From: a virus | Reading direction: 5' to 3' (one strand) | Virus record (IMG/VR): IMGVR_UViG_3300006735_000023 | Location: 15,144 to 79,143 of that record | DNA length: 64,000 bases | Shown: in pieces, positions 45,606 through 58,202 of the stretch | How positions within the stretch are numbered: the first letter of the stretch is position 1 | How the letters are laid out: each line of letters starts with the position of its first letter | Translations under genes and position numbers: made by a program | Notes under the pieces: generated by a model | Told to the model about the DNA's origin: nothing | Databases searched by the model: none | The model's input: the letters and a program-made list of their open reading frames with translations, nothing else

Positions 45606-46072
45606 AAATAAAAGTTTTAGAAGAATTGGAAGATGAATTTAGAAAATTCTGTAAATTAAATGAAATAGAAGACATAAATAAAGAAGCTTATAACTGTTTC
45701 ATTTCAGGTTTTAATGTTAGAAAATACGGACCAACACCAATAGGCCAAAAAGAGGTGGTGGAAAAAGTTGTTGAGGTGGAAAAAATTATTGAAAAAATTA
45801 TTGAGAAAGAAGTACCAATAACCGATGATGTAAAAATACAAGAATTTATAAAAGAAATAGAAAACTTAAAAAATAACTATAATGATTTACAAGGTCTAAC
45901 TAATGAAAAAGACAATCAAATAAAGGCTTTAAGTTCACAAACTCAATTTTATAAAACACAAATATCTGGACTACAAAAGGAGATGGAAAAACGTACAGGG
46001 CCTTTACAAAGATTAATGAGAGGTGATTTCCTAAGAGGCTCTAAACTAAATAATAACTTATACGATGACTAA
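45602..46072 (+). CDS. Coiled-coil protein with EKIIEK repeats
   Basis: EVVEKVVEVEKIIEKIIEKEVP then coiled coil; overlaps both neighbours. Confidence 0.65.
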   Translation: MKIKVLEELEDEFRKFCKLNEIEDINKEAYNCFISGFNVRKYGPTPIGQKEVVEKVVEVEKIIEKIIEKEVPITDDVKIQEFIKEIENLKNNYNDLQGLTNEKDNQIKALSSQTQFYKTQISGLQKEMEKRTGPLQRLMRGDFLRGSKLNNNLYDD

Positions 46073-48410
46073 AATAAAAGTACCACCTAAGGCAAATCTT
46101 AGAATTTTTTGGGAAGACAAAGCGGAAAACTACACCCAACAACGAAGAAAAAAAGTTGAGTCATACTTTAGAAACAAATACGGAGTAAAAAAAGTTAACC
46201 TAATTTTCAAACCAACAAAAATTAATGAAAAAACAGGAAAAGTAGAAATAGACATTAGTGAGAATATAATGGATGATAATTACCAAAAAAAGTTATTTGC
46301 ATCCTGGTTAAGTTTAACAAATCATGAAGTTGAGTGGGAAAGATTACTAGCTCTAAACACTAAAGTCCAAGAAAAATTAGAACAAGAAAGAGATATTGAT
46401 TATAGACATCGTACTTGGAAAATTAAAAAAATAGAATTTGATAATTTTTTATCTTTTGGTGAGGGCAATGTTGTTGATTATTCTAAATTAAATGGAATTA
46501 GTGTTGTTTCATCATCTCCTCCTAATTTTGGAGGTAAAACTATTTTTTGTTTAGATCTTCTACTATTCCTATTGTTTAATACCACAACCAGAACCTCAAA
46601 AACTATAGAAATTTTTAATAAATATTCAAATCAAGATAGAGTAAGGGTTAAAGGGTATCTGATTATTGATAATGAAGAGTATAGTATTGAAAGAGGTATT
46701 ATACGTAGAAAAACTAAAAAAGGAGATTGGGCGGTAAAGACAGAACTAAGATTTCAAAAAATAATGGAGGATGGGTCGGTATTGAATTTAGAAGGAGAAC
46801 AAAGAAGAGAAACAGATGAACTTATAAAGAAAAGTATAGGAACATATGACGATTTTATGGCAACAATAATTTCTACCGCTTCCAACCTAGAAAACCTAAT
46901 TGAAACTAAACCAACGGAAAGAGGTAAAACACTCTCTAAATTCATAGGATTAGAAATATTAGAAAATAAAGAAAAAATAGCCAAAGAAATGTATTCCAAC
47001 TGGAATAAAACATTAAAGATGAATCTTTATAATACCGAAGAGTTAAAAAATGATAATAAAATTCTTAAAGAAGATATAGAAGAAGATGAAAAATTAAAAG
47101 TTGGAGAAAACGCGTTATTAAAACAACTTGAAAATAATATTGGAGATATTGATAATGAAAAAGAGTTTTACCTTTCCCAAAAAACAAAGATTGATGATAA
47201 CTTAACCAAGGTTAAACCCAATGAGATACAAGAAGAAATACAAAAGATTGAAAAAAAGATAACCGATGCAGATAAACTCTACGAAGAAAGAGAAAAAGAA
47301 ATAACTAATATTGGGAATACAAATTACGATATTGAAATATACACCTCACTTACACAAGAAGAAAAGGATGTAGAAATACTCATAGTAAAAAAGAATTCTG
47401 AAATTAATGTAAAACAAAATCAAGTTAAAAACTTAGAGAATAGTGAATTTTGTCCAGTTTGTAAAAGAGCTATGGAAGAAGTGGATCATAGTAAAGAAAT
47501 AACAGAAGTTAAAAAACAAATTGAAAAATTTGAGGACGAAAAGGTTAAGGAACAAAAGAGATTAAAAAAAATCCAGGATAAATTAGAAAAACAAAAACAA
47601 CGTAAAAGTAATTTTGATGAGGTAGAAAAAATTAAAATAACACTTAGTAGGATAGAAATTGATAGGGAGAGGTGGGAGTTAGAAATAGAGAGAAAAAAAG
47701 AAGTAATAAACAAATACAACACCAATCTTAAAGCAATTGAAAATAATATAGAGATAGAGAAAAAAATTGTTGATGCTAATTACAGAAAGAGTAAAAAATC
47801 TTTAGAAAGAGATAACTCATTAAATAAAATTACAAGTATGTCATCAAGAATTGCGGTAAATCAAAAAACTCTAACTAATAATGAAAAGATTATTGAAGTT
47901 ATAAAAAAAGAGGAAGAGATAGATAATGTCTTTAGAGTATTCATTCAAATGGTAGGAAAAAACGGTATCGGTAAAATTGTTATGAATAATATAATTCCTT
48001 CGATTAATAATGAGTTAGAAAGATTGCTAAGTGACACAACTGAGTTTGATGTTAAGTTAGAACTTAATGAAAGAAAAGAGATAGAATTTCACATGATGGA
48101 TAGGAAGACTCAAATATCCAAACCTCTAGTCGCTGGTAGTGGATTCGAAAAAACTTTAGCCTCGTTAGCTCTAAGATGTGTTCTTACTAGAATTAGTTGT
48201 TTACCAAAACCTAACATAATTGTTTTAGATGAAATACTAGGTAAGGTATCAAATGAAAATCTTGAAAGAGTCTCTCAATTCTTTGATAAGGTAAAAGAAT
48301 ATTTCCCTATTGTTATGTTAATCACACATAATGAAATGGTTAAAGACTGGTCTGAAAAAATATTAACAATAACAAAAAAAGATAACATTAGTTCTATTTG
48401 TAGAGTCTAA
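46065..48410 (+). CDS. sbcC: SbcC/Rad50 (gp46-like) ATPase with N-terminal extension
   Basis: FDNFLSFG, PNFGGKT Walker A, CPVC zinc hook, GSGFE signature, IVLDE, LITH. Confidence 0.9.
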   Translation: MTKIKVPPKANLRIFWEDKAENYTQQRRKKVESYFRNKYGVKKVNLIFKPTKINEKTGKVEIDISENIMDDNYQKKLFASWLSLTNHEVEWERLLALNTKVQEKLEQERDIDYRHRTWKIKKIEFDNFLSFGEGNVVDYSKLNGISVVSSSPPNFGGKTIFCLDLLLFLLFNTTTRTSKTIEIFNKYSNQDRVRVKGYLIIDNEEYSIERGIIRRKTKKGDWAVKTELRFQKIMEDGSVLNLEGEQRRETDELIKKSIGTYDDFMATIISTASNLENLIETKPTERGKTLSKFIGLEILENKEKIAKEMYSNWNKTLKMNLYNTEELKNDNKILKEDIEEDEKLKVGENALLKQLENNIGDIDNEKEFYLSQKTKIDDNLTKVKPNEIQEEIQKIEKKITDADKLYEEREKEITNIGNTNYDIEIYTSLTQEEKDVEILIVKKNSEINVKQNQVKNLENSEFCPVCKRAMEEVDHSKEITEVKKQIEKFEDEKVKEQKRLKKIQDKLEKQKQRKSNFDEVEKIKITLSRIEIDRERWELEIERKKEVINKYNTNLKAIENNIEIEKKIVDANYRKSKKSLERDNSLNKITSMSSRIAVNQKTLTNNEKIIEVIKKEEEIDNVFRVFIQMVGKNGIGKIVMNNIIPSINNELERLLSDTTEFDVKLELNERKEIEFHMMDRKTQISKPLVAGSGFEKTLASLALRCVLTRISCLPKPNIIVLDEILGKVSNENLERVSQFFDKVKEYFPIVMLITHNEMVKDWSEKILTITKKDNISSICRV

Positions 48411-48427
48411 TTTTATTTGTATATTTG
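48397..48427 (+). promoter_or_regulatory. Bacteroidota sigmaA-type promoter TTTG-N19-TATATTTG
   Basis: Matches the -33/-7 consensus TTTG-N19-21-TAnnTTTG upstream of 48451. Confidence 0.65.
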
Positions 48428-48450
48428 TAACATATAAAATCATATATAAA

Positions 48451-48987
48451 ATGAAAAAATACATATTATTTATTTTTGGTTATGCAAATGAAGAGTTTGT
48501 TTTAGAAACATTAGCTGATTTAGAAAAGATAAGCGATGATATAAGATTTATGACTGGTGATGGGTATGGTATCTATCATTTTGAAAGTAAAGAAACAGCT
48601 AAAGAAATTAAGGATATACTTTTTGATTATCTTGACGGAACTATACAGACCTTGTTTTTATTTTCCTTAGATAGTGAACATTCTATCGAGATGGATAAAG
48701 ACCTTAAAGATGCATTTTTAGATGCTAAATTTAGTCAGGATGATTTTGAAAAAAAATTAAAAAATATAGAAAACAAATATTTAGGTATTGTTGAAAACGA
48801 GGAAGAAAGGGTTGGTTTAACTCCCCTTAAAGAGTTATTAAAAATGCATCTAGATAAATTACCAGAAAAACCTCTTACTGTAGATGATATTTTAGATAAA
48901 ATTTTAGACAAAGGTCTAAAATCTTTAACAGATAGAGAGAAAAAATTTTTAGACAATCAAAGAAAGTTATTAAATGGAGATAAATAA
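48451..48987 (+). CDS. Hypothetical protein with C-terminal DUF6576-like motif
   Basis: VDDILDKILDKGLKSLTDREKKFL. Confidence 0.65.
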   Translation: MKKYILFIFGYANEEFVLETLADLEKISDDIRFMTGDGYGIYHFESKETAKEIKDILFDYLDGTIQTLFLFSLDSEHSIEMDKDLKDAFLDAKFSQDDFEKKLKNIENKYLGIVENEEERVGLTPLKELLKMHLDKLPEKPLTVDDILDKILDKGLKSLTDREKKFLDNQRKLLNGDK

Positions 48988-49801
48988 AGTACACACCATT
49001 GATGGTATCGATGGATTAAGAATGTTAGAGAATGATAGTGTTGATTTGGTAATTACGTCACCACCCTATGCAGATATGAAGAAATACACTGATGGTAGTA
49101 CCGGTATTCCGGTTACACAATATGTGGCCTGGTTTTTACCATTTGTCGAACACATATCAAGAGTTCTAAAACCTTCTGGTAGTTTTATTCTTAATATAAA
49201 CGATAAAGTTAGTAACAAGTTTAGAGATCCCTACGTATATGAACTTATCTATAAGATTACCAATAACACTAATCTAAAATTATATGAAAGATTATTTTGG
49301 AATAAAGGTAAGGGACTTTCACACCCTAAAAGATTTGGTGATAAAATAGAATACATTTTTTGGTTTGCCAAAGGAACAGATTTCACATTTAATATAGATG
49401 AAATGAGAGTCCCATATAGTAAGTCATCTCTAAAGAGATTCAAAAAACCAATTAAAAAAAGATTTAATAGAACTGAAGGGGATGAGAGTATCGGATATAA
49501 AGACTGGGGACCAAACCCAAAGGGGGCTCTTCCGTCAACACTAATTAACATTGGTTCAGAATCTAAAAGAATATCTGATAATCATATTGCGGTATATCCT
49601 GAGACACTAACAGATTATTTTATTAAAGGGTCTACTAATGAAGGTGATTTAGTTGTTGACCCATTTATGGGTAGTGGTACAACTGGTGTTTCCGCAAAAA
49701 AATTAAAAAGACAGTGGATTGGTTTCGATAATATAGAAAAATATGTTATATTTGCTAACCAAAGAATAGAAGAAACAAAAGTAAATGACAAAATGTCATA
49801 A
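48974..49801 (+). CDS. DNA methyltransferase, N4-C/N6-A family, beta class
   Basis: TSPPY catalytic motif precedes DPFMGSGTT SAM-binding motif. Confidence 0.92.
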   Translation: MEINKVHTIDGIDGLRMLENDSVDLVITSPPYADMKKYTDGSTGIPVTQYVAWFLPFVEHISRVLKPSGSFILNINDKVSNKFRDPYVYELIYKITNNTNLKLYERLFWNKGKGLSHPKRFGDKIEYIFWFAKGTDFTFNIDEMRVPYSKSSLKRFKKPIKKRFNRTEGDESIGYKDWGPNPKGALPSTLINIGSESKRISDNHIAVYPETLTDYFIKGSTNEGDLVVDPFMGSGTTGVSAKKLKRQWIGFDNIEKYVIFANQRIEETKVNDKMS

Positions 49802-49825
49802 AATTCACATTGGCACGAATATTGA
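49785..49825 (+). promoter_or_regulatory. Palindrome ATGACA-AAA-TGTCAT plus sigma54-like -24/-12 element TGGCAC-N5-TTGA
   Basis: Palindrome 49785-49799; TGGCAC 49811-49816; TTGA 49822-49825; 26 nt before the sigma ATG. Confidence 0.6.
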
Positions 49826-49851
49826 ATAGTAATAATAAAAAAGAATAAACT

Positions 49852-50652
49852 ATGAGTAGATTTATAAGTAATGACGAAGAGTCAATATCAAAATATTTTA
49901 AGGATGTACGTAAAGAAACATTATTAACAGCTGAAGAGGAAATAGAGTTATCTAAAATGATACAAGAAGGTAATCAAGCAGCCATGGATAAAATGGTGAA
50001 GTCAAATTTAAGATTTGTCATATCCGTAGCAAAACAGTATCAAAATAAAGGACTAAATTTAAGTGATCTAATTGCCGAAGGTAATCACGGTCTTATGAAG
50101 GCGGCTCAAAGGTTTGACCACACAAAAGGTTTTAGATTTATCTCTTACGCTGTATGGTGGATAAAACAAACAATAACTCAGTCTCTTAACGAAAATTCAC
50201 GTACTATAAGAGTACCGGTAAATGTTATAACAGAAAACCAAAAGTTATATAGGGAGTTACAGAAAGCTTCTTCTCATGATGAAGAGGAAAAGATAAGAGA
50301 AAATTCAAAAGCTAAAAGAATGCCAACCACTACTTCACTTTTTACAAAAATAGATGAAGAGGGTTCAGAATTAATTGATTTAATACCGGATGATAGTTGC
50401 CAACCACCAGATTTCTGTGCCGACGAAGAGGTACAACTAAAAAAAGAATTAAATCAAGTCCTATCGATACTTTCCGACAGGGAACAAGATATTGTAAGAA
50501 GGTATTTTGGACTAACTGGAGAAAGTCAAACCCTAGAAGCAATAGGGGAAGAATATTCATTAACAAAAGAAAGAATTAGACAAATAAAAGAAAAAGCAAT
50601 TCGTAAATTAAGAAATAATTCATTCTCTCTCTTTAGGTTCATGGAGGATTAA
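49852..50652 (+). CDS. rpoD: Phage-encoded RNA polymerase sigma70 factor, Bacteroidota RpoD/SigA-like
   Basis: NLRFVISVAKQYQNKGL, DLIAEGN.GL..AA.RFD.TKGFRFISYAVWWI, TLEAIG..LTKERIRQIKEKA; no region 1.1. Confidence 0.92.
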   Translation: MSRFISNDEESISKYFKDVRKETLLTAEEEIELSKMIQEGNQAAMDKMVKSNLRFVISVAKQYQNKGLNLSDLIAEGNHGLMKAAQRFDHTKGFRFISYAVWWIKQTITQSLNENSRTIRVPVNVITENQKLYRELQKASSHDEEEKIRENSKAKRMPTTTSLFTKIDEEGSELIDLIPDDSCQPPDFCADEEVQLKKELNQVLSILSDREQDIVRRYFGLTGESQTLEAIGEEYSLTKERIRQIKEKAIRKLRNNSFSLFRFMED

Positions 50653-50678
50653 GTATTTATATATAAAATAGATGCATT

Positions 50679-51884
50679 ATGGGTAAAAGATTTTTCCCTT
50701 TCTTAATTGGTTTAGCCGCACTTTTAGTATCTGGTTCTGCCGCATTTTATTCAGTATTTGGATTAAGTAAACTATTTGCTGGTGCTAGTATGCAGGTTAT
50801 AATAATGGCCGGATCCTTAGAATTTGCTAAATTAGTTTGTGCATCGTTACTCTACCAATATTGGGACACAATTAATAAATGGTTAAGGGCTTACCTATCA
50901 GTTGCTGTATTAGTTCTAATATTAATTACTAGTGGTGGTATATATGGATTCTTATCTGGGGCCTATCAGGAGACAGCGACCAAATCTGAATTCCTAGATA
51001 AGTCATTAGCGGTATTACAAACTAAACAAAATAGGTTTGAAGAAAATAAGACAGATTTAACTTTAGAGAAATCACAATTAAATACGACCATTTCTGATTT
51101 AAGGACATCACTTTCAAATCCAGCTCAAGTATCATACTATTCAGAAGATGCAGGACAAGTGATTACAACTACTTCAAGCTCTACTAGAAAGGCGTTACAA
51201 TTAGAATTGGATGCGACAATTGATGATAGAAATAATATAAATCTAAAGTTAGAGGCTGTACAAGATTCTATAATGAGACTTGATACAGAACTATTGGATC
51301 TTGAAATAGGTAATGAAGAACAAAGAGAACTTGGTCCATTAAAATATTTAGCAGAAACAACTGGTAAAGATATGGGACAGGTAGTTAATTGGTTCTTATT
51401 ATTAATTATATTTGTATTTGACCCATTAGCAATTGCAATGGTAATAGCAGCAAATTTTGCATTTGCTCAAATCAAACCTAAAGAAGAAAAAGAGGTCCCA
51501 TCGCCCCATTACTCACCCCAACCAATTATTCCTAGAGAAGTTATAATGGAAGAACTAAGCCAAACAGAAATATCCAGAGAGTTAGATAAAAATGATGAGA
51601 AACCCAAAGAAGAGTTATATACAGAAGAAGATGAAAAACGAATGGATGTAATTGGACAAAACGGAAATGATGGAATTCATTATGAAAAAATTGAAATGGT
51701 TGAGGAAAAAATAGAGACCAAACCTGGACATGTTATTAAACAGGAGTTAAAATTAGAGAAACAAAGAAAAGATTTAGAAGAAGTTAAACAGAGAGAACAA
51801 GAAAAATTAAATAAAAAGATAGTATCCCTAAGTACGGGTAAAAAAGTACTAACTTATAAGAGTAATAGAGATGGAAATAGATAA
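50679..51884 (+). CDS. Multi-pass membrane protein with long coiled coil
   Basis: Three N-terminal hydrophobic helices, coiled coil, further TM (WFLLLIIFVFDPLAIAM), charged tail. Confidence 0.7.
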   Translation: MGKRFFPFLIGLAALLVSGSAAFYSVFGLSKLFAGASMQVIIMAGSLEFAKLVCASLLYQYWDTINKWLRAYLSVAVLVLILITSGGIYGFLSGAYQETATKSEFLDKSLAVLQTKQNRFEENKTDLTLEKSQLNTTISDLRTSLSNPAQVSYYSEDAGQVITTTSSSTRKALQLELDATIDDRNNINLKLEAVQDSIMRLDTELLDLEIGNEEQRELGPLKYLAETTGKDMGQVVNWFLLLIIFVFDPLAIAMVIAANFAFAQIKPKEEKEVPSPHYSPQPIIPREVIMEELSQTEISRELDKNDEKPKEELYTEEDEKRMDVIGQNGNDGIHYEKIEMVEEKIETKPGHVIKQELKLEKQRKDLEEVKQREQEKLNKKIVSLSTGKKVLTYKSNRDGNR

Positions 51885-52491
51885 GAAAACTTTATCACTG
51901 AGTAATAAACATTATTACTCTAAAAAACAAAAAAAGAAAAAGATAATTTTATCTAATTCACTATCAGGAGACATGAAGTATTTCAAAGGATGGGAACTTA
52001 GAAGAAACGGTAACTATAAAAAGGTAACACACTATAGTATAGATAAAAAAGGAAAGGTATACCAACACTTTAATCCACAATATTTTTCCGAGTTTATGGG
52101 TTCAGAAGATTTAGATAAGGAAACTATAAGTATCAATATCGTAAACCAGGGATGGTTAAAAAAAGATTCAAACACAAATAAGTACAAAGACTGGGTTGGG
52201 AATATTTATAATGGAAAGGATGTTTATAAGAAAGAATGGAGAGGATATTTTTTCTGGGCTTCTTATACTGAAAAACAAATGAAAGCTGTTGCAGAACTAG
52301 TGGATTATTTATGTGAAAAACATAAGATTGAAAGAAATTCTTTATCACATAATGTAATGTTTGAAAATGCACCATCGTTCAATGGAGTACTCAGTAGAAG
52401 TAATTTTTCTAGAAAATATAAAGATGTCTCACCTTCATTTAATTTTGATACCATCGATAATAAATTATTAAAAGAGAAAATAGATGACTAA
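51871..52491 (+). CDS. N-acetylmuramoyl-L-alanine amidase (Amidase_2) homolog, probably catalytically degenerate
   Basis: THYSIDKKGKVYQ, ISINIVNQG, YTEKQMKAVAELV..LC..H.I, KDVSP; Zn-binding His and catalytic Glu appear replaced. Confidence 0.75.
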   Translation: MEIDKKTLSLSNKHYYSKKQKKKKIILSNSLSGDMKYFKGWELRRNGNYKKVTHYSIDKKGKVYQHFNPQYFSEFMGSEDLDKETISINIVNQGWLKKDSNTNKYKDWVGNIYNGKDVYKKEWRGYFFWASYTEKQMKAVAELVDYLCEKHKIERNSLSHNVMFENAPSFNGVLSRSNFSRKYKDVSPSFNFDTIDNKLLKEKIDD

Positions 52492-52996
52492 TTCATATGA
52501 TGAAATAAAAGAACTACTTAAAAAAAGTAGAACACGTACCCACCAAATCCTTAAAGAGGAAGAAGGTAGAGAACTAACTCCCCAAGAACAAAAAAAAGAA
52601 GAAGATGATTTTAGGAGAGCAGTTTCTGATAGAGTAAAATTTGGTAAAATTAGAATTTACGAAAGTGGGGGACTACCTAAAGTAGAGTGGATGGGTGAAT
52701 TAGTTAGAGAAAGAATGGAATGGGTTTATTCTTTAGATGATACTGTTGGTTGTTATATAAGTGGTGATCTTTTACAATTAAGAGATGAAACATTAAAAAC
52801 ACTTGAAAAACTTAGGGCTTACTATGATGGTTGGGCTAAGAAATGGTCGGAGGAAACATCAGCTGAATTTGAGGACATGGAGGAATATGACCAGGAGGAG
52901 GCCGATTTCGAAGATCCAGTTACAGAACCTGGAGATGATATTAATATGGACGATGAAGAATTTGATACGGACATAGAAGACGCACTAAATGTATAA
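52484..52996 (+). CDS. Acidic hypothetical protein
   Basis: 170-aa ORF, ILKEE motif, D/E-rich tail. Confidence 0.65.
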   Translation: MTNSYDEIKELLKKSRTRTHQILKEEEGRELTPQEQKKEEDDFRRAVSDRVKFGKIRIYESGGLPKVEWMGELVRERMEWVYSLDDTVGCYISGDLLQLRDETLKTLEKLRAYYDGWAKKWSEETSAEFEDMEEYDQEEADFEDPVTEPGDDINMDDEEFDTDIEDALNV

Positions 52997-52998
52997 TT

Positions 52999-53307
52999 AT
53001 GGAGTTTATTAAAAAGTTTTGGAAATTTATAGTTGCGGTAGTTGGATTTATCTTTGGTTTAATTTGGTTTATGAACGCTAACTCTAATAAGAAAGTTAGA
53101 AGGATTAAAAAAAATATAAAAACTAACGAAAAAAAGACTAAAGAAGTAGAAAAGAAAATACAACAAATAAAAGAAGAAAAGAAACTCACAAAAGAAAAAA
53201 TTGCAACTACTGATAAGGAGTTAAGTGAAATAAAGAAGAAAAAACCTGTAGTTAAAAAGAAAACAGCTTCACAAGCCACTTCATCTCTTAAAAATAGACT
53301 TAAATAA
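52999..53307 (+). CDS. Single-TM basic coiled-coil protein, i-spanin-like
   Basis: N-terminal TM (FIVAVVGFIFGLIWFM) followed by Lys-rich coiled coil. Confidence 0.55.
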   Translation: MEFIKKFWKFIVAVVGFIFGLIWFMNANSNKKVRRIKKNIKTNEKKTKEVEKKIQQIKEEKKLTKEKIATTDKELSEIKKKKPVVKKKTASQATSSLKNRLK

Positions 53308-53309
53308 TA

Positions 53310-53341
53310 TTTGGAGAATACATTTATTTTTTATATTTTTG
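53310..53341 (+). promoter_or_regulatory. Bacteroidota sigmaA-type promoter TTTG-N20-TATTTTTG
   Basis: TTTG 53310-53313 and TATTTTTG 53334-53341 upstream of 53378. Confidence 0.6.
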
Positions 53342-53377
53342 TATTACAAAATTAAATTAAAAATTAAAAATAATTAA

Positions 53378-54034
53378 ATGAAAAATATTCTAATAATTCT
53401 AGTTCTCATCTTTGGGATTAACACTAATCTCCATTCACAAACGAATCTTACTACAGCAATTGATTTTACCGTAACAGATTTTAACGGTAATACCATTAAT
53501 CTATTCTCAATTCTTGATAGTGGACAATGGGTACTTATTAATTTTGGTGCTTATTGGTGTGGACCTTGTATGACTTTAGCGCCAGATTTTGGACAGGCTT
53601 ATGAAGATTTTGGTTGTAATAATGGTGATATTTTTTTATTAGAGGTAGAGTATCAGGGAACAAATGCACAATGTCAGGATTTCCTAACCCAATACGGAGC
53701 AGGACATGACGTACCTTATGTATGTGGAGCAGAACAATTAACTCTCGATTGGGGAATTGCGGCCTTTCCATCTAACGTTCTAATTAATCCAGATGGTGAT
53801 ATTGTACTACAAGATATTTGGCCAATAGATTATACAATTATATCAAACACATTAAATTACTATGGAATAAATCCAGGTAACTGTAATACAACAACTTCGA
53901 TAGAAGAGGTGGAAGTACAAACAATCACTGATAATAGATTATATGATATGTTAGGTAGAGAGTGGCCTAACTATGAATCTTTACCGTATGGTTTTTATAT
54001 TAAAAACGGTAAAAAATTTATAAAAACTAAATAA
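53378..54034 (+). CDS. Secreted TlpA/thioredoxin-like oxidoreductase with T9SS C-terminal sorting-like domain
   Basis: Signal peptide ..NLHS|Q; DFTVTD.NG, INFGAYWCGPC, AFP (cis-Pro loop), LINPDG; tail SIEE..LYDMLGR..GFYIKNGKKFIK. Confidence 0.8.
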   Translation: MKNILIILVLIFGINTNLHSQTNLTTAIDFTVTDFNGNTINLFSILDSGQWVLINFGAYWCGPCMTLAPDFGQAYEDFGCNNGDIFLLEVEYQGTNAQCQDFLTQYGAGHDVPYVCGAEQLTLDWGIAAFPSNVLINPDGDIVLQDIWPIDYTIISNTLNYYGINPGNCNTTTSIEEVEVQTITDNRLYDMLGREWPNYESLPYGFYIKNGKKFIKTK

Positions 54035-54154
54035 ATGAAAAAAATAATTACATCTTCATTACTAATTTTAATTTTGTTAGCAAGTTGTGGTGTGACAAAA
54101 ACTACAGAAAAGTGTGACACTAAAGAAAAAAAAGAATGTTGTTCTAAAAAATAA
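54035..54154 (+). CDS. 39-aa Cys-rich lipoprotein (absent from ORF track)
   Basis: Hand translation MKKIITSSLLILILLASCGVTKTTEKCDTKEKKECCSKK; lipobox LAS|C; fills the gap between flanking genes. Confidence 0.75.
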   Translation: MKKIITSSLLILILLASCGVTKTTEKCDTKEKKECCSKK

Positions 54155-54158
54155 TTAA

Positions 54159-54563
54159 ATGAAAAAAATAAACTATTACGAATTTCTAATATGGACATTT
54201 GTTGTGTCCATTATGTTAACCATGGCGATACCAGCACAAGCCCAAAACCATATTTTTACCGATAAGGAAGTAGTAAAAATGGATTCACTATTCCAAGTGT
54301 ATGAGCAAACAGATAGTCTAAATAAAATAGAAATCAAATTACTCAATACTCAATTATTAAACTACAAAACATTACATAAACAAGACAGCTTACAAATAAT
54401 GTATTTGGAAGAAAATGTTAAATTATTAAATCAAAGAGTTAACCTTTACATAGACCTTACCAAGGAACTAGAACCTAAGTGGTATCAAAAACCAGCGGTA
54501 CACTTTTTTTTAGGCGCTGCCACTATAGTCACATCCTCATGGGTAGTTTCAAATATTAAGTAA
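54159..54563 (+). CDS. Signal-peptide, coiled-coil, C-terminally membrane-anchored protein (spanin-like)
   Basis: AQA|Q cleavage site, coiled coil, KWYQKP plus hydrophobic C-terminus. Confidence 0.55.
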   Translation: MKKINYYEFLIWTFVVSIMLTMAIPAQAQNHIFTDKEVVKMDSLFQVYEQTDSLNKIEIKLLNTQLLNYKTLHKQDSLQIMYLEENVKLLNQRVNLYIDLTKELEPKWYQKPAVHFFLGAATIVTSSWVVSNIK

Positions 54564-54605
54564 TTATCTTTATTTCCGTATATTTATATATAAATGAAAT
54601 AAATT

Positions 54606-54932
54606 ATGGATCCCATTAAAAAATCTATACGACAACAACTCATAGAGAGAAGAGTTAAAAAATCTCGTGCACCCGAAGTAGAGGATGTAGATATCGTTTA
54701 TGATCAACAAGATGAACAAACAACATTAATGATGCACGAAATAAATAATTTACATTCTAGAGTAGATTATTTATCTAGTCTTAATTCGGACCTTGTCGAT
54801 TTTTTACATAGTTTAGTGAAAAATTTAGACCATGAAAATGATTTAGATTTAGGGGAAGCTAGAAGAGACTTTACTGTACTTCTTAATAGATCAGGTAGAC
54901 GTAAATTCTACCAACAACAAAAAAGACTGTAA
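54606..54932 (+). CDS. Hypothetical protein, possibly head-internal
   Basis: Follows TATTTATA; IRQQLIE motif. Confidence 0.6.
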   Translation: MDPIKKSIRQQLIERRVKKSRAPEVEDVDIVYDQQDEQTTLMMHEINNLHSRVDYLSSLNSDLVDFLHSLVKNLDHENDLDLGEARRDFTVLLNRSGRRKFYQQQKRL

Positions 54933-54933
54933 T

Positions 54934-55461
54934 ATGAACTTAAGAGAAACAATAAGAAAAAAACTTGAAGAAGAAGAATGTGGTGTTGGAATGTACTGGT
55001 GTCCAATAGGAGGTAAGTGTGTTCCAGAAAAAAAGAATAAAAGAAAAAAAGAACAAACTACCGCAGCTTCATCAGGTGCTTATGTCACATCATTATCGGC
55101 AGAACCAATTAAAAGAAAAATTAAAGAACAAACCTTAAACCAAGGAATGAAAATAAAAGAGTCTGAACTTATTAGTTTAATTGAAAAATCTATTTATGCA
55201 GCTAAACATGGTCGTATAATTAAAGAAGCACTCACTGACGCGGATGAAAAAAGAATTGGAGTTTTAGCTAGAAAAGAATTAAAAGACTACGAATCCAAAT
55301 TAGAAAAGAAAATTGATAATATGATAGAAAAATCTTTTAAGGGAAAAAAGTTTGAGGACGCTACAGTAAAAATCGCAAGAAACGCCATTGTACAATTATA
55401 TAAAGCACTTTGGATTAGAAGAAGTTTCTGGACAAACTATATTAAAAATGTATCGTCATAA
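54934..55461 (+). CDS. Putative protease-processed head protein
   Basis: LRE, IKE motifs; MKIKESELISLIEK; EQTTAASSGAYV. Confidence 0.55.
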   Translation: MNLRETIRKKLEEEECGVGMYWCPIGGKCVPEKKNKRKKEQTTAASSGAYVTSLSAEPIKRKIKEQTLNQGMKIKESELISLIEKSIYAAKHGRIIKEALTDADEKRIGVLARKELKDYESKLEKKIDNMIEKSFKGKKFEDATVKIARNAIVQLYKALWIRRSFWTNYIKNVSS

Positions 55462-56822
55462 TGGAGGATGTTGTAAAACAAGATATGATAAACGCTTTTA
55501 GCGCTACATCAATTAATGAGGATTATCTTGTTGATGAACAAACAACTTCGGGAGATGCTGGACAATATGTACAACCACAAGTTTGGGCGAAAAATGAAAA
55601 AAATTGGAGAGCCTTTAGTAAAGATTTCCCAAAGTATGGAGGACCAGGGGCTAAGTATGTAAAAGTAAAAGATAAATGTAGAACTTTTCCGTATTGTAAT
55701 CAGGGAGATATAAACGCTCTAGATTTCTTTGAACCCGTTAAAAGAAAAAGAAAAAAGAAATCTAAGAAAGCAAAACTTACCCCACTTGGTAGAAGAAAGA
55801 GAAAAATTGCTAAAGATTTAGTAAGAACTCAAAAAATAAAAACACCAAGAGGTAAACATTATAACATTGGAAGAAGAATATCTGAAAGTAACAGATATTT
55901 ATATTATAATAATGAACTAACTCAACAGGAGGTTGATAAAGCAATATTAGAAAATACTATGAAAAATAAAATTAACAATCCGAAAACTCAGGGTAAAAAT
56001 CTTGAAGACAATATAAAAAAACAACTTAAGATAGTAAGTGAACAAAAAGCTTTTAAGGATCCTCAAGGGGGGTACAAAACTTTTCAAAAAATGCATGCGG
56101 AAAGTGGAGACCATAATGCAGAAGGTATTAAATTAGCGGCAGAAAAAATCAAAAAATTTATGAAAGATGATAGTGGAATGGATATTGCACCACCAATGTA
56201 CCGTAATACTACGACACAAGATGAATTTATAGAAGATGTTTATTATAGTTCAGGACAATCAGGTTTGAAGTATGACCAACCTTTATCAGATGAAACTAAA
56301 GAAAGACATGAGAAATACTTAAAAGGTTCACCAGAGACTGGTAATGCTGTTAAGGGAGGAGAACTGGATAGAGTCGGACCAGGAGGTGCGGTCTCTAATG
56401 TTATGACGAAAAATTCTGAAGGAGGAGCAAACACAGCTGGGGAGATGTTATCTAAAGCGGCCAAAAGAAGAGCAAAAAAAGAGGCAATGGGTATGAGAAT
56501 GGCTAACAATGATAGAAGATATACTCCTGACACGGTAACAACTAGTTCAAAACCAATAGTACAATTAGATGAACATATAATAGATACAGGGGAACAAATC
56601 TTAAAACTTATACCAGAGTCGTTAAAGAAGAATGGACAAAAATTTAAGGTTACTAATGGGAAACAAATTAAAGAGTGTATATATGAAAGTTTTATTAATT
56701 CTAATGGAGGACAAGTAATTATAATAAACTCAAAAAATCCTAACAAACTTACCGAACAAATGGTTAGAATGAAACAATTATTTAACTATGATATTAACAA
56801 GAAGCATGATAAGTTTAGATAA
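55461..56822 (+). CDS. Putative protease-processed head protein; possible nested start at 55959
   Basis: Multiple (I/L/V)xE motifs; EQTTSGDAGQYV; internal TATTTATA at 55896. Confidence 0.55.
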   Translation: MEDVVKQDMINAFSATSINEDYLVDEQTTSGDAGQYVQPQVWAKNEKNWRAFSKDFPKYGGPGAKYVKVKDKCRTFPYCNQGDINALDFFEPVKRKRKKKSKKAKLTPLGRRKRKIAKDLVRTQKIKTPRGKHYNIGRRISESNRYLYYNNELTQQEVDKAILENTMKNKINNPKTQGKNLEDNIKKQLKIVSEQKAFKDPQGGYKTFQKMHAESGDHNAEGIKLAAEKIKKFMKDDSGMDIAPPMYRNTTTQDEFIEDVYYSSGQSGLKYDQPLSDETKERHEKYLKGSPETGNAVKGGELDRVGPGGAVSNVMTKNSEGGANTAGEMLSKAAKRRAKKEAMGMRMANNDRRYTPDTVTTSSKPIVQLDEHIIDTGEQILKLIPESLKKNGQKFKVTNGKQIKECIYESFINSNGGQVIIINSKNPNKLTEQMVRMKQLFNYDINKKHDKFR

Positions 56823-56824
56823 AA

Positions 56825-57400
56825 ATGGGTCTAAGAAGAATAGTTTTAACCGAACAACAATTATCAAGGATAGTTAAATTAATCACTGAGGAATCATTAG
56901 ATTTCACTGATTTTACCCATAAAGGGTCTCCGAATCAAGGTCTAGGTAAAAAAAGTAAAGCACCAAATACAGGGGAAGCCACTTTTGCACCACTATTCAC
57001 TACAGATATAGGTTATGAAAAAACTATAACAAATAATATTGATTATCATTATCCAAAAGTATTCAAAGGACCAAACCCTTCAAAAATACCAAACACTAAC
57101 GATGAGGGTAGTAAGTTAAAAGTAAAAGACAATTTTATGACCCAAGGTACTCAATTAAAAACACATAAGGGTAAACAAAGTATTAAAGTTGGTAAGGAAT
57201 TTACTAAACAAATGAAAAAGGGTAAAATGAGAAAAAACGCATCAAAGAAATACCCTTCATTAAATCCAAAAAGACATTCTTCATCAGAAAAAACAACTAA
57301 TGTTGTTCATAAGAATAATATAACCAGAGGAGGGGTGGTATTTGACTCTAGCTTCAAACCCAATAAAGGGGCGGACCCATTCACAATTAAAACATCATAA
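56825..57400 (+). CDS. Basic protein with N-terminal RIVLTEQQLSRIVKLITEE leader; putative head-packaged protein
   Basis: Leader motif followed by Lys-rich body. Confidence 0.55.
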   Translation: MGLRRIVLTEQQLSRIVKLITEESLDFTDFTHKGSPNQGLGKKSKAPNTGEATFAPLFTTDIGYEKTITNNIDYHYPKVFKGPNPSKIPNTNDEGSKLKVKDNFMTQGTQLKTHKGKQSIKVGKEFTKQMKKGKMRKNASKKYPSLNPKRHSSSEKTTNVVHKNNITRGGVVFDSSFKPNKGADPFTIKTS

Positions 57401-57444
57401 TTTTTTCGTTTACTTAGGAGGTTCCAACATTATATTTATTTAAT

Positions 57445-57927
57445 ATGAGTGATAAAAGGGAACCAATGATAAATCCTAGAGATTTTTTTAAGTATGTTAG
57501 TACTCCTCTAAGTGATGAGCATGTAAAGCTAGCTTATAAAGCTTATGGGATCATACCAGAAAAAGTTGAACTTTACTATGATTTTGTTTTTTCTTTGTTT
57601 GATACGGTATTTCATACTTATTTAGGAGATGACCATATTAACACAGAAAAAAAAATAAAAGAACACTTTATGTGGTCCTGGGAAAAAAATATCGATAATT
57701 TCTATAAGGAAGGAATTGAAATAAACTCAACTAAAGAATTAGAAGACTACTTTCTTCAATTTACAATAGAATCATATTATAATGAACCTGAAAAAGAAAA
57801 AAAGAATACAGAAATTAAAATTAAATGGTTTTGGGGGAAATGTTTTAGTTTTGAAGGTACACGAACTAGGAGTGAATTAGACATTCTTTTAGAAGTATAC
57901 CAAATTTTTGAAAAAAGCTTGAAATAG
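57445..57927 (+). CDS. Hypothetical phage protein
   Basis: 160-aa ORF with upstream GTTTACT and TATTTAT motifs. Confidence 0.7.
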   Translation: MSDKREPMINPRDFFKYVSTPLSDEHVKLAYKAYGIIPEKVELYYDFVFSLFDTVFHTYLGDDHINTEKKIKEHFMWSWEKNIDNFYKEGIEINSTKELEDYFLQFTIESYYNEPEKEKKNTEIKIKWFWGKCFSFEGTRTRSELDILLEVYQIFEKSLK

Positions 57928-57977
57928 GCTTTATTTATAAGGTTTTTTATTATAATTTTTAACAAAAATATACAGTT

Positions 57978-58202
57978 ATGAGAATTATGCGAGTAGTAGA
58001 ATTAGAATTACTTTCACAAAAAGAAAAATTAGAATTTGAATTAGAAGAGTTACTTAATAGAGAATCTAATATTTCTACTGACGAAAGAGTTAATAAAGTT
58101 TTGGAACTTTTGGATAAACAAACAAAAAACTTAAGTTCTTTACAATTATGGAGTTCCTACATGACAGGAGTTGCAGAAAATAATAAAACAGAAAAAAGAT
58201 AA
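57978..58202 (+). CDS. Small helical hypothetical protein
   Basis: 74-aa ORF. Confidence 0.6.
   Translation: MRIMRVVELELLSQKEKLEFELEELLNRESNISTDERVNKVLELLDKQTKNLSSLQLWSSYMTGVAENNKTEKR

What the first reader, a model, noticed from the sequence alone, without database searches (positions are those of the whole stretch)
53310..54154. Phage-encoded type IX secretion cargo: secreted WCGPC thioredoxin plus an unannotated Cys-rich micro-lipoprotein with their own host-type promoter
Seen: a TTTG-N20-TATTTTTG promoter; a 218-aa protein with Sec signal ending before Gln, a TlpA/thioredoxin fold with WCGPC and four further Cys, a Thr linker, and the tail SIEE..LYDMLGR..GFYIKNGKKFIKTK; directly followed by a 39-aa LAS|C lipoprotein whose 22-aa mature part has three more Cys (C-x7-CC). 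Known: YDxxGR, GxY(I/L) and terminal KxxK motifs define the T9SS type A CTD (short form without YPNP), Bacteroidota SPI substrates often start with Gln, and T9SS cargo is exported to the cell surface. Inference: the phage uses the host T9SS to place a thiol-disulfide oxidoreductase on the infected cell surface, with the lipopeptide as redox partner or substrate. Candidate roles: maturing disulfides of progeny virions, reducing disulfide-rich adhesins of competing phages (superinfection exclusion), or altering a receptor. I know of no described phage system of this kind. It may instead be a recently captured host gene.
Basis: partly seen in the sequence, partly recalled or inferred. Interest (0 to 1): 0.82.

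Follow-up and report, generated by a model that had tools for sequence, protein, structure and literature searches.

The report
Phage thioredoxin with mini secretion tail
A marine phage of Flavobacteriales encodes an exported thiol-disulfide enzyme whose short, conserved C-terminal tail belongs to a large, mostly phage-borne tag family in no curated library; the tail looks like a cut-down type IX secretion signal, while the neighbouring 39-residue lipoprotein is probably a leftover gene stub, not a partner.

Summary
The observed features are all present. There is a 218-aa Sec-exported ResA/TlpA-type thioredoxin (WCGPC, invariant Gln at +1), a 39-aa lipobox ORF, and a Bacteroidota-type promoter motif.

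The tail fails the type A CTD models (TIGR04183 12.3 bits against a cut-off of 23; no PF18962 hit). The structured part is only about 32 residues.

It is nonetheless a real modular tag:
- A 51-position profile finds 737 protein clusters, with the tail almost always at the extreme C-terminus of signal-peptide proteins.
- It is common in viral contigs (44 loci) and rare in Flavobacteriales genomes (about 4 of 151).
- A related short tail occurs in 49 of 151 Flavobacteriales genomes.

On the thioredoxin tree, short tails and canonical CTDs replace each other. A complex model places the tail's conserved residues on PorV (0.75 against a best control of 0.00).

The best reading is a reduced, phage-type T9SS-like export tag. 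This is untested.

The lipoprotein as redox partner is not supported. Its only homologue is the N-terminus of a 317-aa lipoprotein in a related phage. The cassette lies in a variable island between two spanin-like genes.

Phage T9SS cargo has been reported before (PMC7468147, PMC6949934), and this scan noted similar short tags on other DNA.

The parts
53310..53341 (+). Bacteroidota-type promoter-like motif, TTTG-N20-TAttTTTG, in the 70-nt gap before the thioredoxin gene
   Evidence: There are 6 such motifs in the window against 2.3 expected, so the support is positional rather than statistical.
53378..53437 (+). Sec signal peptide (residues 1-20), with predicted SPI cleavage LHS|Q
   Evidence: Sequence. 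Q21 is invariant in 19 relatives. The Bacteroidota Q-rule is cited from memory.
53438..53881 (+). ResA/TlpA-type thioredoxin domain (residues 21-168). It has WCGPC at 60-64, the cis-Pro P131, and Cys 80/99/116 (with C169) as probable structural disulfides.
   Evidence: Pfam and NCBIfam hits. AF2 pLDDT is about 90. Foldseek matches ResA 1su9 at E 7.5e-11.
53882..53935 (+). Flexible Thr-rich linker and SIEE segment (residues 169-186)
   Evidence: AF2 pLDDT is 35 over residues 172-183. The I-x-E motif is conserved in the tail family.
53936..54031 (+). Core of the short C-terminal tail (residues 187-218): LYDMLGRE..LPYGFYIKNGKKFIKTK, a small four-strand beta module
   Evidence: AF2 of the tail alone gives pLDDT above 90 for residues 20-50. 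The profile finds 737 clusters. The predicted PorV contacts fall on exactly these residues.
54035..54154 (+). 39-aa lipobox ORF (LAS|C; mature part C-x8-C-x7-CC, Lys-rich). Probably the stub of a larger lipoprotein gene.
   Evidence: It resembles the N-terminus of the L002 317-aa lipoprotein, sharing the lipobox and KKECC at DNA level. P0175 is another variant.
52999..53307 (+). Upstream flank of the island: 102-aa protein with an N-terminal TM segment and a Lys/Glu coiled coil, Rz-like
   Evidence: PHROG phrog_739 (Rz-like spanin), E 1.1e-5. It is syntenic in L002.
54159..54563 (+). Downstream flank of the island: 134-aa protein with a signal peptide, coiled coil and C-terminal TM segment, and no Cys
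   Evidence: The L002 homologue matches at E 8.6e-49.
51871..52491 (+). Amidase_2-like (endolysin-type) gene that marks the lysis/envelope neighbourhood
   Evidence: Pfam PF01510, E 7.6e-11. PHROG amidase/endolysin hits.

Best explanation
This is an accessory gene of a marine phage of Flavobacteriales, probably with its own host-type promoter. It sits in a variable island between two conserved spanin-like genes next to the lysis genes.

Shown: the product is exported by Sec (cleavage before an invariant Gln). It carries an intact ResA/TlpA-type thiol-disulfide oxidoreductase domain with the CxxC motif, the cis-Pro and two probable structural disulfides.

Shown: it ends in a flexible linker plus a conserved beta module of about 32 residues (Y-D-x-L-G-R-E ... 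P-x-G-x-Y-I-x-N-x-K-K-x-I-K). This tail is a modular C-terminal tag shared by hundreds of otherwise unrelated secreted proteins, mostly from phages.

Inferred: the tail is a cut-down derivative or functional equivalent of the T9SS type A C-terminal domain. It engages the carrier PorV, so that the infected cell exports the enzyme to its surface or into the medium.

Inferred: outside the cell, or in transit, the enzyme acts on disulfides of envelope proteins or of co-secreted proteins. The most economical substrates are the Cys-rich proteins that carry the same tail. In another phage lineage one of these is encoded immediately upstream, overlapping the thioredoxin gene.

The 39-aa lipoprotein ORF is not a dedicated partner. 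It is most likely the retained 5' module (signal peptide plus Cys/Lys-rich stalk) of a larger, variable lipoprotein gene.
For: 1. Thioredoxin identity and intact catalytic residues.

2. Positional equivalence of tail and CTD. More distant relatives P0021-24 carry PF18962. Metagenomic relatives end in full PNP-type CTDs. In alignment A1 the phage tail aligns to their YDxxGK, GxYxx and RFIKK segments.

3. On the thioredoxin-domain tree, short-tail and canonical-CTD proteins are interleaved. Starred branches force 3 changes by my labels, one of which reflects my labelling of L031 as canonical. A bacterial member, L031, carries a third, related short tail.

4. Modularity.
- The 7-sequence tail profile finds 737 clusters at E<=1e-3 and 62 at E<=1e-10 among 1.84 billion representatives.
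- 139 of 155 matches end within 5 residues of the C-terminus.
- 60 of 75 long proteins have a signal-peptide-like N-terminus.
- In L004 an unrelated 172-aa Cys-rich protein with the same tail overlaps the thioredoxin start.

5. Taxonomic fit with T9SS hosts.
- The tail occurs in 44 viral loci.
- The only confirmed genome hits are Flavobacteriales MAGs.
- The three of these MAGs that I searched all have PorV, and one locus (L166) holds porU-porV.
- A related short tail is present in 49 of 151 Flavobacteriales genomes, on hydrolases, LRR proteins and thioredoxins.

6. Complex model of the tail with a Flavobacteriales PorV.
- ipSAE is 0.75 (runs 0.69, 0.75, 0.76) against a best of 3 controls of 0.00.
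- That mark was reached by 58 of 80 solved complexes and 2 of 110 mismatched pairs.
- The runs agree in at least 61% of contacts, and partner pLDDT is at least 59.
- Contacts fall on tail residues 21-29 (YDMLGREWP), 35-40 and 43-49, including the conserved Lys.
- Solved CTD-PorV complexes exist (PMC10994853), so this pass shows likeness and not binding.

7. Profile-profile comparison of the tail with 16 real CTDs gives P about 1e-4 and probability 55-64% over the YDLLGRE strand.

8. Among only 13 PDB chains with Z>=2 to the tail model, three are T9SS CTDs: HBP35, NucA and PorU.
Against: - The tail fails the curated type A CTD models. TIGR04183 gives 12.3-13.3 bits against a cut-off of 23, and only in some members. 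There is no PF18962 hit and no other NCBIfam or Pfam family.
- My own HMM built from 16 canonical CTDs does not retrieve the tails.
- The folded part has about 32 residues and four short strands. Type A CTDs are seven-stranded sandwiches of about 70-80 residues (PMC10994853).
- The structural matches to CTDs are all weak (Z<=2.6; no Foldseek hit at E<=0.001).
- The PorV used in the complex model comes from a stand-in MAG, not the unknown host.
- There is no expression, secretion or enzymatic data.
- A WCGPC reductase-type enzyme has no obvious electron donor outside the cell.
- The tail family is far more conserved in sequence than type A CTDs usually are. That could mean a different, sequence-specific partner.
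Confidence: 0.55

Rival explanations
1. Lysis-cassette reading. The thioredoxin stays in the periplasm and serves the neighbouring envelope and lysis proteins. The 102-aa Rz-like protein would be an i-spanin and the 39-aa Cys-rich lipoprotein an o-spanin. The thioredoxin would form or control the o-spanin's intermolecular disulfides. The tail would only tether it under the outer membrane, for instance to PorV from the periplasmic side.
For: - The gene lies between an Rz-like gene (phrog_739, E 1.1e-5) and a signal/coiled-coil/TM gene. An Amidase_2-like gene is two genes upstream.
- In L004 the thioredoxin is again near a peptidoglycan hydrolase, an M23-like peptidase.
- The lipoprotein ORF starts at the thioredoxin stop codon.
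- Lambda spanins need intermolecular disulfides made by the host Dsb system (Berry et al. 2013, from memory).
- An earlier scan note, e1-6091905, proposed the spanin-like set independently.
Against: - The two coiled-coil proteins contain no Cys.
- The lipoprotein's only homologue is the N-terminus of a 317-aa protein, separated from the thioredoxin by another gene.
- L003 and L004 have the thioredoxin without such a lipoprotein next to it.
- The same tail sits on hundreds of unrelated secreted proteins, which fits an address tag better than a lysis-specific role.
- The PHROG hit is weak and could reflect TM plus coiled-coil composition.
- A 21-aa mature o-spanin would be unusually short.
Confidence: 0.2
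2. The tail is a phage-specific tag with a function other than T9SS export. Examples are anchoring to another outer-membrane or cell-wall component, oligomerisation, or blocking PorV/T9SS so that surface receptors for competing phages are no longer delivered (superinfection exclusion). Its resemblance to the CTD would then be ancestry only, or convergence.
For: - It fails all CTD models.
- It is too short for the seven-strand fold.
- Its sequence is unusually conserved across 737 clusters.
- It is enriched in viral contigs and rare in bacterial genomes.
- T9SS and gliding components are known to be needed for infection by Flavobacterium phages (from memory).
Against: - The tail is interchangeable with canonical CTDs on one cargo family.
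- The N-terminal domains are diverse, as expected for cargo.
- Related short tails sit on ordinary bacterial enzymes in a third of the sampled Flavobacteriales genomes.
- The predicted PorV contacts include the conserved C-terminal Lys, as in solved CTD complexes.
Confidence: 0.15
3. The gene is a recently captured host gene, or a decaying passenger, whose CTD has been truncated and no longer works. The cassette has no role for the phage.
For: - Bacterial relatives with full CTDs exist.
- The window's island is a reduced version of the one in L002 and contains a probable gene stub.
Against: - The closest bacterial relatives are at most about 43% identical.
- Phage homologues span 39-72% identity and keep the catalytic residues and the tail residues D190, G193 and R194 invariant or nearly so.
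- The same tail is conserved in 44 viral loci.
- The stretch recurs in marine metagenomes from many studies.
Confidence: 0.05

Closest known systems
T9SS type A C-terminal sorting domain (Por_Secre_tail, TIGR04183 / PF18962), carried by PorV
   Same: - It sits at the extreme C-terminus of Sec-exported proteins of Bacteroidota.
- It shares the motif order (v-Y-D-x-x-G-k/r ... G-x-Y-x ... K-x-x-K) and has Lys residues near the C-terminus.
- It occupies the same position as true CTDs on homologous thioredoxins.
- It is predicted to contact PorV.
   Different: - The folded module has about 32 residues (about 50 with the linker) instead of about 70-80.
- It has four short strands instead of a seven-strand sandwich, and no YPNP segment.
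- It scores below the cut-offs of both curated models.
- Its sequence is far more conserved than that of typical type A CTDs.
- It is carried mainly by phages.
Phage-encoded T9SS cargo: 'Cryophage' endoglucanase, GH39 and PA14 proteins (Bellas et al. 2020, PMC7468147), and crAss-like BACON or T9SS-sorting-domain ORFs (de Jonge et al. 2019, PMC6949934)
   Same: These are phage genes for signal-peptide proteins ending in a T9SS-type tag. They lie in variable regions and are presumed to hijack the host secretion system. None has been tested experimentally.
   Different: Those proteins carry canonical type A sorting domains that standard models recognise. Here the tag is a short, unannotated form, and the cargo is a redox enzyme rather than a glycanase or adhesin.
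ResA / TlpA / DsbE (CcmG) extracytoplasmic thiol-disulfide oxidoreductases
   Same: The thioredoxin fold with the ResA-type insertion, a W-C-x-P-C active site, the cis-Pro loop, and an extracytoplasmic location. Foldseek TMt is 0.87 to ResA 1su9.
   Different: - All scores lie far below the equivalog cut-offs (ResA 52.7 bits against 170).
- It is not membrane-anchored.
- It has four extra Cys and a C-terminal sorting tail.
- It has no link to cytochrome maturation genes.
Two-component spanins (lambda Rz/Rz1 type)
   Same: A small lipobox protein with Cys residues lies near an N-terminally anchored coiled-coil protein (phrog_739) and an amidase-like gene.
   Different: - The two genes are separated by the thioredoxin gene.
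- The mature lipoprotein would be only about 21 residues and is Lys-rich rather than Pro-rich.
- Its homologue in the related phage is a 317-aa protein.
- The coiled-coil proteins lack Cys.

Membership tests
Thioredoxin-fold thiol-disulfide oxidoreductase (TlpA/ResA-like; Pfam AhpC-TSA, Thioredoxin_8, Thioredoxin) | Domain model score above the curated cut-off | tested here: met
   AhpC-TSA scores 44.2 bits (cut-off 26), Thioredoxin_8 37.7 (27) and Thioredoxin 29.9 (23.5).
Thioredoxin-fold thiol-disulfide oxidoreductase (TlpA/ResA-like; Pfam AhpC-TSA, Thioredoxin_8, Thioredoxin) | CxxC active site and cis-Pro loop conserved | tested here: met
   WCGPC lies at 60-64. C61, C64 and P131 are invariant in 19 relatives.
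Thioredoxin-fold thiol-disulfide oxidoreductase (TlpA/ResA-like; Pfam AhpC-TSA, Thioredoxin_8, Thioredoxin) | ResA-type fold | tested here: met
   The AF2 domain has pLDDT of about 90. Foldseek matches ResA 1su9_B at E 7.5e-11, TMt 0.87, rmsd 2.3 over 143 columns.
ResA or DsbE/CcmG equivalog (cytochrome c maturation) | Equivalog or subfamily model score above the cut-off | tested here: not met
   NF002854 ResA scores 52.7 bits against 170. TIGR00385 DsbE scores 31.9 against 123.
T9SS type A CTD (TIGR04183 / PF18962) | HMM score at or above the curated cut-off | tested here: not met
   - TIGR04183 gives 12.3 bits and E 0.12 (cut-off 23) for the window protein, and matches only 1 of 19 relatives.
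- A related MAG tail scores 13.3 bits.
- PF18962 does not hit at E<=1.
- The whole viral record has no hit.
T9SS type A CTD (TIGR04183 / PF18962) | Seven-stranded beta-sandwich of about 70-80 residues (PMC10994853) | tested here: not met
   AF2 shows a disordered linker plus about 32 residues with four short strands, both in the full protein and in the tail alone (pLDDT 84.6).
T9SS type A CTD (TIGR04183 / PF18962) | Structural similarity to solved CTDs | tested here: inconclusive
   - Foldseek finds no match at E<=0.001.
- VIA-align wide gives HBP35 CTD at Z 2.6 (rmsd 3.8, 37 aligned), NucA CTD 8glk_D at Z 2.3 (rmsd 4.2, 40 aligned) and the PorU C-terminus at Z 2.0.
- These three are among only 13 chains with Z>=2.
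T9SS type A CTD (TIGR04183 / PF18962) | Extreme C-terminal position on proteins with an N-terminal Sec signal | tested here: met
   139 of 155 matches end within 5 residues of the C-terminus. 60 of 75 long proteins have a signal-peptide-like N-terminus.
T9SS type A CTD (TIGR04183 / PF18962) | Sequence relationship to bona fide CTDs | tested here: inconclusive
   - It aligns to the CTD of homologous thioredoxins in A1.
- hhalign gives probability 55-64% and P from 6.5e-5 to 1.2e-4, over 19 columns only.
- An HMM built from canonical CTDs does not retrieve the tails.
T9SS type A CTD (TIGR04183 / PF18962) | Restricted to organisms with a T9SS (or their phages) | tested here: met
   - All confirmed genome hits are Flavobacteriales MAGs.
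- PorV was found in all 3 MAGs tested.
- 44 viral loci carry the tail.
- The window phage's own host is not identified.
T9SS type A CTD (TIGR04183 / PF18962) | Binding to the carrier PorV through a conserved near-C-terminal Lys | tested here: inconclusive
   This is a prediction only. ipSAE is 0.75 against a best control of 0.00. That mark was reached by 58 of 80 solved complexes and 2 of 110 mismatched pairs. Runs agree in at least 61% of contacts and partner pLDDT is at least 59. Contacts include tail K45 with PorV residue 125. Solved CTD-PorV complexes exist, so the pass may come from the model's memory.
T9SS type A CTD (TIGR04183 / PF18962) | T9SS-dependent secretion and PorU cleavage | not testable with these tools
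   This needs expression in a Flavobacteriales host and in its T9SS mutants.
Bacterial lipoprotein (39-aa ORF) | Signal peptide with a lipobox [LVI][ASTVI][GAS]C | tested here: met
   The sequence reads LLILILLAS|C. The Pfam LPAM_1 match is only E 0.064.
Bacterial lipoprotein (39-aa ORF) | Conservation as an independent small gene | tested here: not met
   The only homologues are the N-terminus of the L002 317-aa lipoprotein and the 61-aa P0175. There is none beside the thioredoxin in L003 or L004.
Two-component spanin (i-spanin plus o-spanin) | An N-anchored periplasmic coiled-coil protein adjacent to or overlapping a small outer-membrane lipoprotein gene, within a lysis cassette | tested here: inconclusive
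   The 102-aa protein hits phrog_739 at E 1.1e-5, and an amidase-like gene is nearby. However, the lipoprotein gene is separated by the thioredoxin gene and is not conserved as a small gene.

The most novel reading that the evidence does not exclude
The tail is a phage-evolved minimal T9SS/PorV-targeting signal of about 32 residues. It marks a large 'phage secretome' that has not been catalogued: at least 737 clusters of small, mostly Cys-rich exported proteins in phages of marine Flavobacteriales. The thioredoxin would be the folding or redox helper for this secretome on or outside the infected cell. If so, it would be the shortest natural T9SS signal known, and it would show that phages routinely reprogram the surface of infected Bacteroidota through the host's own secretion system.
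Probability: 0.35. Interest if true: 0.8.

Novelty: new variant of a known kind. Interest (0 to 1): 0.6.

Why it matters
If the short tail is a working export signal, three things follow.

1. It would define a minimal T9SS/PorV recognition element, about 32 residues against about 75. That would be useful for dissecting how the translocon reads its substrates and as a compact secretion tag.
2. Current Pfam and NCBIfam models would be missing a whole class of T9SS cargo. This class includes a related short tail present in about a third of the sampled Flavobacteriales genomes.
3. Marine Flavobacteriales phages would be exporting a large, diverse set of small Cys-rich proteins plus a redox enzyme from infected cells. 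This bears on superinfection exclusion, receptor masking and how infected cells interact with particles and polysaccharides in the sea.

The thioredoxin domain itself is ordinary, and the lipoprotein-partner idea does not hold.

Tried and rejected
The contigs of the closest relatives, P0001-P0003 (66-99% identity), could therefore not be inspected. Synteny rests on L002-L004 and L025/L026 only.
There is no read-level evidence on expression, contiguity or the deletion junction.
A search with the L002 lipoprotein N-terminus among shorter proteins found only P0175.
- Megablast of 46000-58000 against GenBank phages found nothing. tblastn of the thioredoxin found only distant thioredoxin-domain hits, none covering the tail.
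- The search for related loci with the short tail alignment A3 failed because no stretch was conserved enough. It was redone with A5.
- Foldseek of the tail model against the PDB gave no match at E<=0.001.
- The sigma-70 promoter and intrinsic terminator scan of 52400-55000 was uninformative: promoter-like sites were below the shuffle mean and there were no terminators.
- No tRNA genes are present in the window.
- The tail HMM found no second tail-bearing ORF in the 79-kb viral record.
- I rejected a role for the 134-aa neighbour as a disulfide partner, because it has no Cys.
Full report
**What is there.** The window is part of a 79-kb IMG/VR viral record that CheckV rates 24% complete. All long ORFs lie on the + strand. 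PHROG hits to a DnaB-like helicase, ribonucleotide reductase, baseplate wedge and an SbcC-like nuclease show that it is a large tailed phage.

- TTTG-N20-TATTTTTG at 53310-53341, in a 70-nt gap.
- A 218-aa ORF at 53378-54034.
- A 39-aa lipobox ORF at 54035-54154, which starts at the base after the thioredoxin stop codon.
- A 134-aa gene four bases further on.

The promoter motif matches the Bacteroidota -33/-7 pattern. The pattern occurs 6 times in the window against 2.3 expected by chance, so only its position supports it.

**The enzyme.** The 218-aa protein passes the Pfam cut-offs for AhpC-TSA, Thioredoxin_8 and Thioredoxin. Its best NCBIfam similarity is to ResA, DsbE and StoA, far below their equivalog cut-offs.
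- An AlphaFold2 model built on 19 relatives gives the domain a pLDDT of about 90.
- Foldseek's best matches are Bacillus ResA structures (1su9, E 7.5e-11, TMt 0.87).
- In 19 relatives, Q21 (the residue after the predicted signal-peptide cleavage), C61, C64, C80, the cis-Pro P131 and C169 are invariant.

The protein therefore looks like an active, Sec-exported oxidoreductase with structural disulfides.

**The tail does not pass as a type A CTD.**
- TIGR04183 gives 12.3 bits (cut-off 23), for this protein only among 19 relatives.
- PF18962 gives nothing, and no other Pfam or NCBIfam model covers the tail in any protein tested.
- An HMM I built from 16 canonical CTDs found in related loci does not retrieve the tails.
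- AlphaFold2 shows a disordered linker (172-183) followed by about 32 well-predicted residues forming four short strands. This holds in the whole protein and for the tail alone (pLDDT 84.6).
- A seven-strand sandwich, the defining fold of type A CTDs (PMC10994853), is not possible at this length.

**It is nevertheless a genuine modular C-terminal tag.** In L004, a related viral contig, an unrelated 172-aa Cys-rich secreted protein ends in the same tail. Its gene overlaps the start of that phage's thioredoxin gene.

A 51-position profile of seven tails was searched against 1.84 billion representative proteins. It found 737 clusters at E<=1e-3 and 62 at E<=1e-10.
- Among the best 150 proteins, which gave 155 matched stretches, 139 stretches end within five residues of the C-terminus.
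- 60 of the 75 proteins of 140 aa or more have a signal-peptide-like N-terminus, typically MKKLLLVLLVLLGLQTQAQ.
- The N-terminal parts are diverse. Most are small Cys-rich 'Q..CDS...CxxCD...W' modules. Others include thioredoxins, lipase-like proteins and LRR proteins.

**Where the tail lives.** A scan of 2.9 million viral contigs confirmed 44 loci. A scan of 185,579 species genomes confirmed six, all in Flavobacteriales MAGs.

Four of the six are one orthologous gene of about 200 aa in Crocinitomicaceae-type MAGs, in ordinary chromosomal context. It sits next to proteins with canonical type A and type B CTDs.

In 151 sampled Flavobacteriales genomes the phage-type tail appears in about 4. A related second short tail (..LGRE..NTPLFYIYxDGTVEKKIIIE) appears in 49, at one to six copies. 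It is found on beta-lactamase-fold hydrolases, LRR proteins and thioredoxins. This second tail is also unrecognised by NCBIfam and, for the one protein scanned, by Pfam.

The three MAGs tested all encode PorV, and one locus shows porU-porV.

**Link to the T9SS.** Four lines of evidence connect the tail to type IX secretion.
1. More distant relatives of the thioredoxin carry PF18962, and metagenomic relatives end in full PNP-type CTDs. In alignment A1 the phage tail lines up with the YDxxGK, GxY and terminal basic segments of those CTDs.
2. On a maximum-likelihood tree of the thioredoxin domains, short-tail and canonical-CTD proteins are interleaved. Well-supported branches force 3 switches by my labels. 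One of the three reflects my labelling of L031 as canonical, and it in fact carries the bacterial short tail. The tags have therefore replaced each other on one cargo family.
3. Profile-profile comparison gives a weak but non-random match over the YDLLGRE strand (P about 1e-4). Three of the only 13 PDB chains with Z>=2 to the tail model are T9SS CTDs, though every Z is 2.6 or lower.
4. A complex prediction of the tail with PorV of a tail-bearing MAG scored 0.75 (runs 0.69, 0.75, 0.76) against 0.00 for the best of three controls.
   - That mark was reached by 58 of 80 solved complexes and 2 of 110 mismatched pairs.
   - The runs agree in at least 61% of contacts, and partner pLDDT is at least 59.
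   - Contacts fall on the conserved YDMLGRE, PYGFYI and KKFIK residues.
   - Solved CTD-PorV structures exist, in which a near-C-terminal Lys touches PorV. The pass therefore shows that the model treats the tail like a CTD. It does not show that the tail binds.

**The lipoprotein and the neighbourhood.** L002 is a viral contig with a 57% identical thioredoxin. It shares the upstream genes with the window: a membrane protein, an amidase-like gene, an acidic protein and a 104-aa TM/coiled-coil protein. It also shares the downstream 123-aa signal/coiled-coil/TM gene. Between these flanks it carries four genes: the thioredoxin, a 200-aa secreted protein, a 317-aa lipoprotein and a PG_binding_1 protein.

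The N-terminus of the 317-aa lipoprotein matches the window's 39-aa ORF. The lipobox and a KKECC segment are shared at the DNA level. P0175 is a third variant of this module.

The window's ORF is therefore most simply the retained 5' module of a larger, variable gene in an island that has shrunk. L003 and L004 have the thioredoxin without such a neighbour. The redox-partner idea has no comparative support.

The 102-aa upstream flank gives a weak Rz-like spanin hit (phrog_739, E 1.1e-5). The island therefore sits between two spanin-like genes beside an amidase-like gene. Earlier notes of this scan read it the same way here (e1-6091905) and on another genome (e1-6082550). A periplasmic, lysis-related role for the thioredoxin stays open as a rival. 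However, the coiled-coil proteins have no Cys and the pairing is not conserved.

**Prior knowledge.** Phage genes with T9SS sorting domains have been reported, without experiments, in 'Cryophage' (PMC7468147) and in crAss-like phages (PMC6949934). This scan has also noted phage T9SS-type cargo and a 35-residue 'half-size' tag on other DNA.

What is new here is the extent and phage bias of this particular short tail, its bacterial cousin, their absence from curated libraries, and the swap with canonical CTDs on one cargo family.

**Other points.** The 1.8-kb stretch recurs in marine metagenomes from many studies.

**Verdict.** The most likely mechanism is export through the host T9SS via a reduced PorV-binding tail (confidence about 0.55). 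The thioredoxin would act on disulfides of co-exported or envelope proteins. The lipoprotein is probably a gene stub. This is a new variant of a known kind.

Noticed in passing
L004:5429-5947 (also L025 and L026); proteins P0027-P0174: There is a very large family of small (about 160-190 aa) secreted, Cys-rich phage proteins. They are built from one or more 'Q..CDS ... DTxKxC ... CxxCDxLVxD...W' modules and end in the same short tail. None has a Pfam or NCBIfam match. In L004 the gene overlaps the start of the thioredoxin gene.
   Followed up: partly
L031:269-421 and L031:1445-1594; L161:1504-1653; G001 and 48 other Flavobacteriales genomes: A second short C-terminal tail (..K-x-L-x-K-I-x-D-x-L-G-R-E-T..N-T-P-L-x-Y-I-Y-x-D-G-T-x-E-K-x-x-x-I-E) sits on bacterial beta-lactamase-fold hydrolases, LRR proteins and thioredoxins. 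It was found in 49 of 151 sampled Flavobacteriales genomes at 1-6 copies. No NCBIfam model recognises it, nor does Pfam for the one protein scanned. It may be an unannotated class of sorting signal.
   Followed up: partly
L110:3530-4135 (orthologues in L107, L108, L109): A chromosomal 201-aa secreted protein of Crocinitomicaceae-type MAGs carries the phage-type tail. Its neighbours are ordinary bacterial genes, including proteins with canonical type A and type B CTDs. This may be a phage-derived gene domesticated by the host, or the source of the phage tag.
   Followed up: partly
window 52999-53307 and 54159-54563: Two conserved coiled-coil membrane proteins flank a variable island. One is N-anchored and Rz-like by PHROG. 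The other has a signal peptide and a C-terminal TM segment. The island holds 2 genes here and 4 genes in L002:5953-8924. This looks like an insertion hotspot inside a non-canonical spanin-like pair.
   Followed up: partly
window 48397-48427: A second well-placed TTTG-N19-TAnnTTTG motif lies just upstream of the gene that starts at 48451, in the short gap after the SbcC-like gene. The phage may use host-type promoters at several accessory or late genes.
   Followed up: no
window 49852-50652: The phage encodes its own sigma-70-family factor (phrog_351, E 8.9e-64), about 3 kb upstream of the cassette.
   Followed up: no
L106:1038-3458: An 807-aa protein beside a tail-bearing gene ends in an unusually short (about 60 aa) but still PNP-containing CTD (..KIYNTLGDVIL..NGMYILESESMRKKIIKQ). 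It looks like a length intermediate between canonical CTDs and the phage tail.
   Followed up: no
protein P0048: One tail-bearing protein (185 aa) starts with an N-terminus very like that of the window's 134-aa neighbour (MKKFNYYEGLIW.. against MKKINYYEFLIW..). This suggests that modules are shuffled among the envelope-targeted genes of these phages.
   Followed up: no
L002:7252-8205 and protein P0175: The lipoprotein signal peptide plus Lys/Cys-rich stalk module is joined to different downstream sequences in different contigs: 317 aa, 61 aa, and 39 aa in the window. This is the behaviour of a variable cassette gene with a conserved 5' end.
   Followed up: partly
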